Below are positions 6,001 through 9,000 of a DNA stretch of 10,428 bases, piece by piece (the first letter of the stretch is position 1; each line of letters starts with the position of its first letter). The DNA lies in IMG/VR virus record IMGVR_UViG_2778260992_000009, positions 1 to 10,428 of that record. One strand, written 5' to 3'. This stretch comes from a virus (lineage: Duplodnaviria > Heunggongvirae > Uroviricota > Caudoviricetes). Position numbers: made by a program.

Positions 6001-9000
6001 TGAGTTGATAGCGTTCACTCCAGGTAAAATCGATCTCACCTTCAGGGGGAAGGTCATTAACGACAGGAAAATTCGTGGCAACAGCTTTAAAATAGCTGCT
6101 CAGTTTTTTACCTGACTTAACGATCAGGTAGTCCAGAGTGGCACAGGTCGATTCAAAATCGTCGCTTGCCCACAAGACGACGTCAGGTTCACCGGATGAT
6201 TTTTTCGCTTTCCGTAACAGGAAGAGTGGTTTTGTGCTCATTGTTTTTTAACCTCAACTCAGATTAAAATTCGTTTTGTTCAGTGAATGATCTTGCCGGA
6301 TACACACTGTTCATAGCCTGCGCCATACGCAGGCTATTTCTTTCAGATTTCACCGTTTAATTTCATTGCAATCAGAGTTGCCAGAAATCCGGCTTTTTTT
6401 TCTGCGGGCAGATTCTTTCCGATGTGAACCAGGCACATTTTTGTGACACCTTCATCAAGTGTTTTTACGTTGCCTGATGGACCGTCGATATCAACCACAG
6501 TGAATGGGGTTTCTTTATTTTCTGTTTTAATCACGTAGCCAATACGCTTTCCTTCCAGATTAACCTCGTGAACAATGTCATCGGTAGTTACAACAGTGGC
6601 TTCATAATTGGTAATCATGTTTTTCTCCTTAATTAAGGTTGAGTGAATCCCTGCCATTGCTGGCATAAATTCAGTTTCGAATAGTCAGTTAATTAAAGTT
6701 CGTGTGCCATCTGGTCTTTTTCGGCACATATTTCACTACAATATTTTTTCATTTCCGTCGTTGGGATAACTCCACGCATGAAATGAAGTGGTTTTGTAAT
6801 GCTTTTGCTTTTTTCAACTTCTTTATTGCAAAGGTGGTAAGCACATTTTATTTTCTTAGTCATCACCATGACTCCGCCTTTACAGGTAAACCATCACGAC
6901 CGAGGAAGACTTTAATCATGCAGTCAGTAATGCATGTTTTTGTGGTCAGGTTACGAATATAAAGTTTTCGCTTTTTAATATTGTTTGCCGAGGCAATATA
7001 TGTCCGGCCTTCATGAAGAACATAATCGCCAGGAGTCACACACTGACGTGGTATTTCATCAGTTCCGAAGTGATGTGCAATCATAATTATCTCCATTTTT
7101 ACAAATGAACTTTGTTGATGCGGTGCCTGGTGCCTCCAGGTGACGTTAACCAGTTAACAATTAACGCCGGATAATCCACCCATAACACTGATGCTTTTAA
7201 CTGTTCCGCGTGCGCTTAGCCGCATTCACCGCATCACAAAATTCACTTTAAAAAGGGGCGGACATCAGCCGAACTTCAAGAAAAAACTGATGCCGCCAAG
7301 ACTACACACAGCAATGTCGTTATTTACAACCGGAGGCGCACTCCCACCATTTAAATTTCACAGACAAGACCGGACTCTTTATGGATACCGGAAATGCGCC
7401 TTCGTGTTGTATGCCTGTCTTTTTACCACTTTAGGCTCGGTGGTATACTGGAGTTCTCACACAACCAGTAAGGAATTGCTTATGCCTATTCAATCTCAAC
7501 ACAAAAATATTGATTATCTTTCCGCCAGATTAGAGGCTACCACGCTTGTTCTTGAAGAACTTGTTAAACTTCTTACGCCAGAGCAGCGTGAAAAACTGAA
7601 TCTGGCAATTGCCGGGCGTTGTCCGGGCGTGAAAAATGCGTCTCTCAGGAATAGAAATTCTCTCGCATATCAATTATTACAGTTCATCAATGATGGCGTC
7701 CGCAGCAGCGATTAATTTTTCTAATGCCTCTTCGACATGATAATTGTATGGTTGTAGTGACCTGACATCTGTAATTGCATTAGCCAGGTTTCGTGCCATT
7801 ACGGCTGGTGCGATTTTTTTTTTGCTACTGATACCCGGCTGGCGAGTTCCAGTGCGAGACGTGCCTGCCTTGGAGTTAGCTCTCTCTCTCCTTTGCCATT
7901 GTTGATGCTTGTACAGACAATTCATACGCCAGGCAAAATACAGCATTATTCGTTTCTGGCGGGTCAATACTCTGAGTAAATGTCATCTTATCTCTCCCCT
8001 TAACGCCGGGTGGCGGAACTAAAACCTACAGCGCCGTGCTGTTCTTGATATAAATATTAGTAACACGGATATTTTAAGTCAACAGTGTGACGTATTATGT
8101 TTTTGATTTAGTAACTAAGTAAATGTTTTTTCAAGGGATAAATATTAGTTATACAGCTGATTTGCAGAAGTTATGGCACAAAAAAACCGACTAAGACGTC
8201 GGTTTTTTTGTTGTGGATGGGGTGGTGAGCGGTGGCTACTGGTTGCGTTTCTTTAGTGCCAGCATGTTCTCGAAGGCTTCCTCGTAGAGCTTGTTTAGTC
8301 CACGTAGCTGGTTAAGGAGTTTGGCTTTTTCTGACGCAGGTAGAATCTCGAAGAGGTTAAGTAACTCTGCCTGTTCTTCATTGACCAGCCTCCATCCTTT
8401 GCCTGAAAAGCTATCATCATAAGTATCTGATGATCTTACATAATTCATTAAGTCTTTAAGGTCTTCTCGAATGTCCTCTGGTTTTACCTTTAACAGAGCC
8501 GCAAATTTTAGCGCAGCGTCGGTATTTACCGGTATCTTGCCGTTCAGATACTGACTAACGGTGCCTTGAGATTCGAATCCCAACAACTCAGCCGCCAGCT
8601 CTTGAGTCAGCTTCAGCTCTTTTTTTCTTGCATTCCATGCGGCTTTTAAATTCTTGCTCGCTTCTGGAGTTGCAATCACGTCACGTGTTTTTTTCATACA
8701 TAGAGTTTATTTGTTTTACCAATATTATCAAAGATAGTCTGACTATTGATCTTTAAAATTAGTGGGGCTAATATTTGCTCGAGGCATAACGTAGAAGGTT
8801 GGCTATGAACTTAAGAGACTATTTAAAAGAGAAAAATATCACCCAGCTACAGTTTGGGAAGCTAACGGGTTTATCTCAGGTGCATGTAAGTCGAGTGCTG
8901 GGGGGCTATGAAAGATTCAGCCCTGAAAAAGCATTACGTGTTGCTGAAGTAACGAATTTCGAGGTTACACCTCATGAACTCCGGCCTGATATCTACCCGA

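What the first reader, a model, noticed from the sequence alone, without database searches (positions are those of the whole stretch)
7677..7986. N-position gene split across two frames at a (CT)5 tract, with a T10 homopolymer further downstream
A short frame with an excellent SD (AGGGGAGAGA, then ATG at 7986) encodes MTFTQSIDPPETNNAVFCLAYELSVQASTMAKERES and stops at a TAA (7878-7876) right after the (GA)5 run (plus 7881-7890). The long ORF-track frame (to 7677) passes through the same tract in another register (RRER) and lacks a convincing SD at any of its start candidates. A 2-nt loss or 1-nt gain in the tract would fuse them into one protein of about 103 aa with a proper ribosome-binding site. 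A second slippery tract, T10 (7814-7823), encodes KKK in the long frame. Possible explanations are a frameshifted pseudogene, a sequencing error, slipped-strand variation, or programmed frameshifting. The split might also correspond to the two small adjacent Rac genes ydaF and ydaG.
Basis: partly seen in the sequence, partly recalled or inferred. Interest (0 to 1): 0.55.

Follow-up and report, generated by a model that had tools for sequence, protein, structure and literature searches.

The report
Doubly frameshifted small prophage gene
This is a broken copy of a small conserved gene of unknown function in a Rac-like E. coli prophage, knocked out by two separate 2-base expansions at short repeats; it is a real, inherited allele but an ordinary case of gene decay.

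Summary
The sequence features are all present as described. On the minus strand there is a strong SD and ATG at 7986, a 36-aa ORF stopping at 7878-7876, a (GA)5 tract at 7881-7890, an A10 tract at 7814-7823, and a second ORF ending at 7677.

The interpretation needs correcting. Sixteen of the 18 complete E. coli genomes with this gene, and phage Rac-SA53 ('rac11'), have one uninterrupted 306-nt, 101-aa ORF with (GA)4 and A8. The window carries +2 nt at both tracts. The gene is therefore split into three segments in three frames, not two.

Removing 2 nt at each tract restores a 101-aa protein identical to a natural allele.

The intact gene is under purifying selection (dN/dS about 0.3; about 1.1-1.6 in the other frames). 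It belongs to a small, unnamed family of ~100-aa enterobacterial prophage proteins and is unrelated to YdaF or YdaG.

The exact window allele occurs on 65 contigs, so it is not an assembly error. Other natural alleles are A7, A9, A10 with (GA)4, and (GA)5 with A7, on several SNP backgrounds. The A8 tract in racC behaves similarly.

Verdict: slipped-strand frameshift pseudogene; ordinary, low interest.

The parts
8054..8082 (-). PL-like sigma-70 promoter (TTGACT, 17 nt, TATAAT-like TAATAT), about 70 nt upstream of the ATG. It overlaps an operator-like repeat (8050-8075, second copy 8138-8163).
   Evidence: Consensus scan; direct repeat D1. Function is inferred, not shown.
7984..8022 (-). Leader, Shine-Dalgarno and ATG block (TTAGTTCCGCCACCCGGCGTTAAGGGGAGAGATAAGATG). 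It is identical upstream of K-12 ydaG, which marks a mosaic junction at the start codon.
   Evidence: A 39-nt match to other phages, one annotated YdaG; K-12 sequence read directly.
7882..7986 (-). Segment 1: native codons 1-35 (MTFTQ...AKERE). In the window they are followed by AGC TAA (7881-7876), giving the 36-aa ORF.
7881..7890 (-). (GA)5 tract, +2 nt relative to (GA)4 in close relatives. More distant relatives have an interrupted GAAAGAGAG. This is the first frameshift.
   Evidence: Alignments; chance expectation.
7817..7879 (-). Segment 2: native codons 36-56 (LTPRQARLALELASRVSVAKK), in the third frame.
   Evidence: Three-frame translation and edit simulation; intact proteins.
7814..7823 (-). 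A10 tract (T10 on the + strand), +2 nt relative to A8 in intact alleles. This is the second frameshift.
7677..7814 (-). Segment 3: native codons 57-101 (IAPAVMARNLAN...AIIDEL) plus the TAA stop.
7677..7946 (-). The RefSeq-annotated 89-aa 'hypothetical protein' WP_253956766.1. It is a chimeric ORF whose first 44 residues are out of frame (native frame starts at I57, residue 45), and I found no SD-like sequence before its ATG. It is best regarded as an annotation artefact of the pseudogene.
   Evidence: Annotation; frame analysis; sequence read.
7482..7715 (+). Convergent 77-aa gene ('rac10' of Rac-SA53) that overlaps the 3' end of the disrupted gene by 39 nt. It is intact here.
   Evidence: Annotation; dN/dS 0.27 against L015.
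7775..7823 (+). On the + strand, a hairpin at 7775-7813 (-16.6 kcal/mol, z -2.3) is followed by the T10 run. It resembles a terminator for the convergent gene. It may be fortuitous.
   Evidence: It is not conserved at the same place in L015.

Best explanation
Window 7677-7986 (minus strand) is a non-functional, doubly frameshifted allele of a conserved ~101-aa early-left-operon gene of Rac-SA53-type prophages ('rac11').

This gene is the first ORF after the PL-like promoter. It occupies the slot that ydaG holds in K-12 Rac.

Two independent slipped-strand expansions of 2 nt each, (GA)4 to (GA)5 and A8 to A10, put the three parts of the gene in three different frames.

Translation from the strong SD and ATG should yield only a 36-aa fragment: 35 native residues (helix 1 of a predicted four-helix protein) plus Ser. 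The rest is most likely untranslated.

The allele is real and inherited, not an assembly error.

A likely order of events is A8 to A10 first, because (GA)4+A10 alleles exist in nature, followed by neutral expansion of the GA tract in an already dead gene.

Shown here: the indels, the intact ancestral form, purifying selection on that form, and recurrence of tract changes. Inferred: the mutational mechanism, the order of events, and loss of function.
For: (1) Sixteen of the 18 complete E. coli genomes carrying the gene give a 327-nt match, where the window's 331-nt query carries 4 extra bases. Every relative whose annotation was fetched, and phage Rac-SA53, have one 306-nt, 101-aa CDS, except P393-F10. 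The window genome and P393-F10 (A7) are the two exceptions.

(2) Alignment puts the only differences that matter at the two tracts, +2 nt each.

(3) Deleting 2 nt at both tracts gives a 101-aa protein identical to the natural allele P0018. Repairing a single tract does not restore the protein.

(4) Against the 75%-identical homolog in L015, the native frame has dN/dS 0.28-0.34 at dS about 0.5-0.6. The other two frames give about 1.1-1.6 with 6 stops each.

(5) More distant homologs from Salmonella, Yersinia, Pantoea, Cronobacter and Lelliottia are all single ORFs of 94-111 aa.

(6) The exact 89-aa product of the window allele is on 65 contigs and indexed in 111 collection blocks. The independent assembly GCA_042441485.1 has identical DNA across the aligned gene region.

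(7) Against three relatives, the remaining 10.4 kb has no other frame-breaking indel. Elsewhere there are only two intergenic indel sites (8203-8204 and 8774) and one in-frame 6-nt repeat change.

(8) Intermediate and other alleles exist: (GA)4+A10 (P0011, P0013), A7 (P0005 on 74 contigs, P0006, P0014 and others), A9 (P0003 on 28 contigs) and (GA)5+A7 (L021).

(9) Control: the A8/T8 run in racC is T9 and flagged 'frameshifted' in 3 of about 58 sampled complete genomes.
Against: No expression data are available, so 'non-functional' is an inference. The 36-aa fragment could retain some activity.

A10 exceeds the roughly 9-nt length at which RNA polymerase slippage becomes evident in many bacteria (PMC1088944). 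Some mRNA heterogeneity at the second site is therefore likely.

About 16% of the contigs counted carry a tract frameshift (185 against 988 listed intact). That is high, and a simple decay model does not predict it. Clonal and duplicate sampling inflate the figure, and 22 intact variants were not counted.
Confidence: 0.85

Rival explanations
1. Phase-variable (contingency) gene. The two repeats would act as reversible ON/OFF switches for a prophage gene whose expression is sometimes costly, and the window shows an OFF state.
For: Tract-length changes recur on several SNP backgrounds. A7 is found on at least 3, A10 on 2 and (GA)5 on 2. Disruptions concentrate at the tracts, with only one frameshift elsewhere (P0010). 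Roughly 16% of counted contigs are out of frame.
Against: The tracts are short in the ON state (A8, (GA)4). Both are absent in the divergent homolog L015 and in the distant family members. The GA tract exists only because of a synonymous GAA to GAG change. The window allele needs two separate reversions. The neighbouring racC A8 run shows comparable frameshift alleles, so this looks like generic homopolymer instability. No in-frame length variants such as A5 or A11 were seen.
Confidence: 0.08
2. Recoding. Full-length protein would still be made from this allele by ribosomal frameshifting or RNA-polymerase slippage at the two tracts.
For: A10 is longer than the roughly 9-nt slippage-prone length reported for many bacteria (PMC1088944). 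Rescue of an interrupted gene by slippage at a poly-A run is documented for Citrobacter tssM (PMC4256274). An SD-like AAGGAG lies just upstream of the premature stop.
Against: Two shifts are required. The first site (GAG AGA GAG AGC TAA) has no X-XXY-YYZ or +1-type slippery codons, and (GA)5 is a short dinucleotide repeat. The majority allele is in frame and distant homologs lack the tracts, so nothing is conserved for recoding. The combined yield would be the product of two inefficient events.
Confidence: 0.03
3. Sequencing or assembly artefact in the source genome.
For: Both differences lie in low-complexity tracts, the usual sites of indel errors.
Against: The identical allele product is found on 65 contigs from several sources. 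An independent assembly has identical DNA across the aligned gene region. No other frame-breaking homopolymer indels occur in 10.4 kb. Both changes are +2 rather than the more typical single-base error.
Confidence: 0.02
4. Two genuine small genes, analogous to ydaG and ydaF of K-12 Rac.
For: The position between the repressor and the sieB-slot gene is the same. The 39-nt leader and SD are identical to those of ydaG.
Against: There is no sequence similarity to YdaF or YdaG. The second ORF is out of frame for its first 44 residues, and I saw no SD-like sequence before its ATG. Selection acts on the single native frame only.
Confidence: 0.01

Closest known systems
'rac11' hypothetical protein of Escherichia phage Rac-SA53 (ALP46914.1; RefSeq WP_161622426.1, WP_062873819.1 and related)
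   Same: It is the same gene at the same locus. The DNA is 98-99% identical. After removing 2 nt at each tract, the window protein is identical to a natural 101-aa allele.
   Different: The window copy carries (GA)5 and A10 in place of (GA)4 and A8, and so it is split over three frames.
Slipped-strand frameshift pseudogenes at short repeats, for example the 'frameshifted' racC alleles (T8 to T9) in other E. coli genomes
   Same: An indel at a short homopolymer or dinucleotide run within a prophage ORF. Alleles are polymorphic among strains.
   Different: Here two tracts in one 306-nt gene are both hit. RefSeq does not flag the gene as frameshifted and instead annotates an 89-aa ORF.
Phase-variable contingency loci driven by simple repeats (established knowledge: Haemophilus, Neisseria and Campylobacter genes with long homopolymer or multi-unit repeats)
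   Same: Length-polymorphic repeats inside a coding region that switch the frame.
   Different: The tracts are short, young and not conserved. No in-frame alternatives were seen. The window allele is two steps from ON. A neighbouring gene's A8 run behaves similarly.
Transcriptional-slippage rescue at poly-A runs (Thermus dnaX and IS elements, PMC1088944; Citrobacter rodentium tssM, PMC4256274)
   Same: An A10 run in the sense strand of an interrupted ORF.
   Different: A second, non-homopolymer frameshift lies upstream, and the A run is not conserved across homologs.
ydaG / ydaF of K-12 Rac
   Same: Same slot downstream of the repressor gene and the PL-like promoter, with an identical 39-nt leader and SD.
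   Different: The coding sequences are unrelated.

Membership tests
rac11-like ~100-aa enterobacterial prophage protein family (unnamed; no Pfam or PHROG) | Sequence homology over the full length to the 101-aa proteins | tested here: met
   The repaired window ORF is identical to P0018. Cluster P0001 holds 37 intact variants. The profile search finds 94-111-aa homologs in six genera.
rac11-like ~100-aa enterobacterial prophage protein family (unnamed; no Pfam or PHROG) | One uninterrupted ORF of about 100 codons | tested here: not met
   The window copy is split into three frames by two +2 indels. It is therefore a pseudogene member.
rac11-like ~100-aa enterobacterial prophage protein family (unnamed; no Pfam or PHROG) | Same genomic context: between the HTH repressor and the convergent 77-aa gene, upstream of kilR, ydaE and recE | tested here: met
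Phase-variable contingency locus | The repeat tract is conserved as a feature of the gene across homologs | tested here: not met
   L015 and the distant homologs lack both tracts. The GA tract is interrupted in the 94-96%-identical relatives.
Phase-variable contingency locus | Recurrent independent tract-length changes in natural populations | tested here: met
   A7, A9, A10 and (GA)5 occur on several SNP backgrounds. However, the racC A8 control run shows the same behaviour.
Phase-variable contingency locus | High-frequency reversible switching within a clonal culture | not testable with these tools
   This needs deep sequencing or reporter assays.
Programmed ribosomal frameshift or programmed transcriptional slippage gene | The out-of-frame arrangement is the conserved, majority state | tested here: not met
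   Sixteen of 18 complete genomes and about 84% of counted contigs are in frame.
Programmed ribosomal frameshift or programmed transcriptional slippage gene | A recognised slippery site at each shift | tested here: not met
   A10 qualifies for RNA polymerase slippage. The (GA)5 / AGC TAA site has no slippery heptamer or +1-type shift codon.
YdaF (DUF1391) / YdaG | Sequence similarity to K-12 YdaF or YdaG | tested here: not met
   blastp E 0.34 and 6.2; no Pfam hit.
Lambda N-type antiterminator | First gene of the PL operon | tested here: met
   This is positional only. The promoter-like site at 8082-8054 is followed by this ORF.
Lambda N-type antiterminator | Homology to N proteins or to an N-family profile | tested here: not met
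   No Pfam or PHROG match. The predicted structure is a four-helix protein. N-family membership is not supported.

The most novel reading that the evidence does not exclude
rac11 could be a genuine contingency gene of Rac-like prophages. Its two young repeats would be repeatedly used to switch off, and possibly back on, the first gene of the early-left operon. The T-run might also serve as the U-tract of a terminator for the convergent gene, so that length changes would tune both genes at once.
Probability: 0.07. Interest if true: 0.5.

Novelty: new member of a known kind. Interest (0 to 1): 0.15.

Why it matters
The main value is for annotation. RefSeq carries an 89-aa 'hypothetical protein' (WP_253956766.1) here that is an out-of-frame chimera. 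The locus should instead be marked as a frameshifted pseudogene of the 101-aa gene.

The locus also gives a small, clean example of recurrent slipped-strand mutation at A8 and (GA)4 runs in prophage genes. The allele series A7/A8/A9/A10 and (GA)4/(GA)5 could serve as a lineage marker in STEC surveillance.

The intact gene belongs to an uncharacterised family of ~100-aa proteins. It sits directly after the PL-like promoter of Rac-type prophages. Its function is unknown and may be worth testing, but the split itself reveals no new mechanism.

Tried and rejected
- ydaF/ydaG homology: rejected (blastp E 0.34 and 6.2).
- Function assignment for the intact protein: no hit in Pfam, PHROGs or PADLOC. 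The PDB sequence profile search gave nothing credible; the best hit was histone H4 at E 0.018.
- Structure: two AlphaFold models (pLDDT 71-73, four helices). Foldseek against BFVD and PDB gave no match with E <= 0.001, only generic helical bundles.
- Exhaustive HMMER over 1.84 billion representatives: only 6 hits, all small hypotheticals.
- Rfam on 7000-8900: nothing in the gene or its leader.
- Leader RNA 7987-8050: no unusual stability (z 0.15). The GA-tract region has no notable structure (z -0.8). There is therefore no frameshift-stimulating structure.
- Terminator idea for the + strand hairpin plus T10: the fold is stable (z -2.3), but the element is not conserved in L015. It remains a speculation.
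- Literature on strain BMH-17-0027 and on Rac-SA53: nothing about this gene or the sequencing method.
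Full report
**1. Observation**

Reading the minus strand of 7500-8200 and listing ORFs confirms the described features.
- AAGGGGAGAGA precedes an ATG at 7986.
- A 36-aa ORF (MTFTQSIDPPETNNAVFCLAYELSVQASTMAKERES) ends at TAA 7878-7876.
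- A (GA)5 run lies at 7881-7890, which is (CT)5 at 7880-7889 on the + strand.
- An A10 run lies at 7814-7823.
- A 96-aa ORF runs 7677..7967. It reads the GA tract as RRER and the A run as KKK.

(CT)5 is unexpected by chance, with 0.03 per window and 4 of 200 shuffles reaching it. T10 is not unusual, with 0.47 expected and 52 of 200 shuffles.

ATG 7986 to the stop at 7677 spans 310 nt, which is 1 mod 3. The long ORF is therefore in the +1 frame relative to the ATG frame. Simulated edits give the following.

| Edit | Product |
|---|---|
| -2 in the GA tract | 61 aa, stopping just after the A10 run |
| +1 in the GA tract | 62 aa, stopping just after the A10 run |
| -1 in the GA tract | 102 aa, chimeric, about 20 residues out of frame |
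| +2 in the GA tract | 103 aa, chimeric, about 20 residues out of frame |
| -2 at both tracts | 101 aa, identical to the natural allele P0018 |

**2. Where the window comes from**

The window is 100% identical to E. coli O8:H28 strain BMH-17-0027 (flour, Canada), inside a Rac-like prophage.

The gene order is intR, xisR, ralR, recT, recE, a racC-like gene, ydaE, kilR, a convergent 77-aa gene, the gene under study, an HTH repressor, a ydaS-like gene, ydaT and a DUF1376 gene. The closest phage record is Rac-SA53, where the gene is called 'rac11'.

**3. What relatives show**

The gene occurs in 18 of 5,426 complete E. coli genomes.

Sixteen of these give a 327-nt match, where the window's 331-nt query carries 4 extra bases. 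Every relative whose annotation was fetched, and phage Rac-SA53, has a single 306-nt, 101-aa CDS, except P393-F10. P393-F10 has A7 and a truncated CDS.

The alignment shows the window has +2 nt at the GA tract and +2 nt at the A tract. Close relatives have (GA)4 and A8. The 94-96%-identical relatives have an interrupted GAAAGAGAG.

The native protein therefore lies in three segments, each in a different frame.

| Segment | Native codons | Window coordinates (minus strand) |
|---|---|---|
| 1 | 1-35 | 7986-7882 |
| 2 | 36-56 | 7879-7817 |
| 3 | 57-101 plus stop | 7814-7677 |

Removing 2 nt at both tracts yields a 101-aa protein identical to the natural allele P0018.

RefSeq annotates 7677-7946 as an 89-aa hypothetical protein. 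This ORF is out of frame for its first 44 residues (the native frame starts at I57, residue 45). I found no SD-like sequence before its ATG in the sequence.

**4. The intact gene is a real gene**

Against the 75%-identical homolog on Logan contig L015, the native frame gives dN/dS 0.28-0.34 at dS about 0.5-0.6. The two other frames give about 1.06 and 1.56, with 6 stops each.

An exhaustive HMMER search and a profile search recover only a small family of 94-111-aa hypothetical proteins. They come from E. coli, Salmonella, Yersinia, Pantoea, Cronobacter and Lelliottia, and all are single ORFs.

The family has no Pfam, PHROG, PADLOC or PDB sequence match.

AlphaFold predicts four helices at pLDDT 71-73. 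Foldseek finds nothing significant in BFVD or PDB. The function remains unknown.

L015 lacks both tracts (AAAGAAAGAGAG and GCAAGCAGAAAAGAAGCG). The tracts are therefore young and specific to this lineage.

**5. Real allele or artefact?**

The exact 89-aa product of the window allele (P0015) is on 65 contigs from NCBI, Logan and ENA, and is indexed in 111 blocks.

The independent assembly GCA_042441485.1 (L020) has identical DNA across the aligned gene region.

I aligned the whole window with three relatives that are 99.2-99.3% identical. The indel sites are:
- the two rac11 tracts;
- an intergenic T-run at 8203-8204;
- one intergenic base at 8774;
- an in-frame 6-nt repeat unit at 9983.

All other genes are intact, including the 3,147-nt recE. 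An assembly error is therefore very unlikely.

**6. Population variation at the tracts**

Cluster look-ups reveal the following alleles.

| Genotype | Representative proteins | Contigs |
|---|---|---|
| (GA)4 + A8 (intact) | 37 variants of 101 aa | 988 on the 15 listed |
| (GA)4 + A7 | P0005, P0006, P0007, P0008, P0012, P0014 | 74, 7, then 1 each |
| (GA)4 + A9 | P0003, P0009 | 28, 3 |
| (GA)4 + A10 | P0011, P0013 | 1 each |
| (GA)5 + A10 (the window) | P0015 | 65 |
| (GA)5 + A7 | P0004 (locus L021) | 1 |
| Frameshift outside the tracts | P0010 | 1 |

The A7 alleles lie on at least 3 amino-acid backgrounds and the (GA)4+A10 alleles on two. The (GA)5+A7 allele lies on a different SNP background from the window.

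Roughly 185 of about 1,170 counted contigs, or about 16%, are frameshifted. This is an upper estimate. Twenty-two intact variants were not listed, and the same isolates recur across sources.

As a control I examined the A8/T8 run in the racC-like gene (window 6394-6401). It is T9 and flagged 'frameshifted' in 3 of about 58 complete genomes sampled evenly across the ranking. Frameshift alleles at 8-nt A/T runs are thus a general feature of Rac genes, not a peculiarity of this one.

**7. Mechanism**

The best-supported account is ordinary slipped-strand mutation during replication at two short repeats, in a prophage gene under only moderate constraint.

The (GA)4+A10 alleles suggest that the A run expanded first. 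The GA tract would then have expanded neutrally in a dead gene. This order is an inference.

The expected product is the 36-aa fragment translated from the strong SD.

A10 is above the roughly 9-nt length at which RNA polymerase slippage becomes evident in many bacteria (PMC1088944), and such slippage can rescue interrupted genes (PMC4256274). The upstream (GA)5 shift, however, has no slippery codons and is followed at once by TAA. Appreciable synthesis of full-length protein is therefore unlikely.

No stimulatory RNA structure is evident.

Phase variation cannot be excluded without culture-level data. The arguments against it are the short, unconserved tracts, the two-step distance of this allele from the ON state, and the racC control.

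**8. Context**

- A sigma-70-like promoter (TTGACT, 17 nt, TAATAT; 8082-8054, minus strand) overlaps one of two operator-like repeats (8050-8075 and 8138-8163).
- A perfect 14-bp palindrome flanked by A and T runs (8178-8211) follows the repressor gene.
- The gene is thus the first ORF of a PL-like operon, so 'N-position' is a fair positional label. Nothing supports homology to N.
- The 39 nt ending in the ATG (7984-8022) are identical upstream of K-12 ydaG, whereas the coding sequences are unrelated. This indicates a cassette exchange exactly at the start codon.

**9. Verdict**

The interpretation 'frameshifted pseudogene or slipped-strand variation' is right in kind but wrong in detail: there are two frameshifts, not one; three frames, not two; and the proposed repair is incorrect.

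The ydaF/ydaG, sequencing-error and programmed-frameshift readings are not supported.

This is an ordinary, though neatly documented, case of gene decay plus a RefSeq mis-annotation. Interest is low.

Noticed in passing
window 7984-8022 (minus strand); L014 3457-3495: The 39 nt up to and including the ATG (TTAGTTCCGCCACCCGGCGTTAAGGGGAGAGATAAGATG) are identical upstream of K-12 ydaG and also occur in several phage records, whereas the downstream coding sequences are unrelated. This marks a mosaic junction exactly at the start codon. The block contains a small hairpin, CGCC-ACCC-GGCG, whose stems are also kept in L015 (loop ACCG).
   Followed up: partly
window 7256-7310 (-) and 7077-7266 (-): There are sub-threshold but significant Rfam matches to DicF (41.1 bits, E 4.5e-7) and STnc100 (43.8 bits, E 1e-7) between the convergent gene and kilR. 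K-12 annotates the sRNA kilS at the equivalent place. These matches overlap the 5' part of the 174-aa + strand ORF 7191-7715, which one genome (STEC276) annotates in full.
   Followed up: no
window 7775-7823 (+): A hairpin (-16.6 kcal/mol, z -2.3) immediately followed by the T10 run looks like an intrinsic terminator for the convergent 77-aa gene that ends at 7715. If so, the T-run inside rac11 would serve both strands. The element is not conserved in the divergent locus L015.
   Followed up: partly
window 6394-6401 (racC-like gene 6343-6618, minus strand): This A8/T8 run is T9 and annotated 'frameshifted' in 3 of about 58 sampled complete E. coli genomes (L023-L025). A fourth genome (L022) has a +1 elsewhere in the gene.
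   Followed up: yes
window ~9983 (DUF1376 gene, + strand): The window lacks one 6-nt unit (AGATAC) of a short tandem repeat that is present in three close relatives. The change is in frame. SNPs against the relatives are strongly clustered in 10019-10413, suggesting a recombination boundary.
   Followed up: no
window 8178-8211 and 8203-8204: A perfect 14-bp palindrome (ACAAAAAAACCGAC / GTCGGTTTTTTTGT) lies downstream of the repressor gene and looks like a bidirectional terminator. Its T-run length varies among close relatives.
   Followed up: no
window 7482-7715 (+): The convergent 77-aa gene ('rac10') sits in the slot of sieB, overlaps rac11 by 39 nt, and is under purifying selection (dN/dS 0.27 against L015). 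It has no family assignment and no similarity to SieB.
   Followed up: partly
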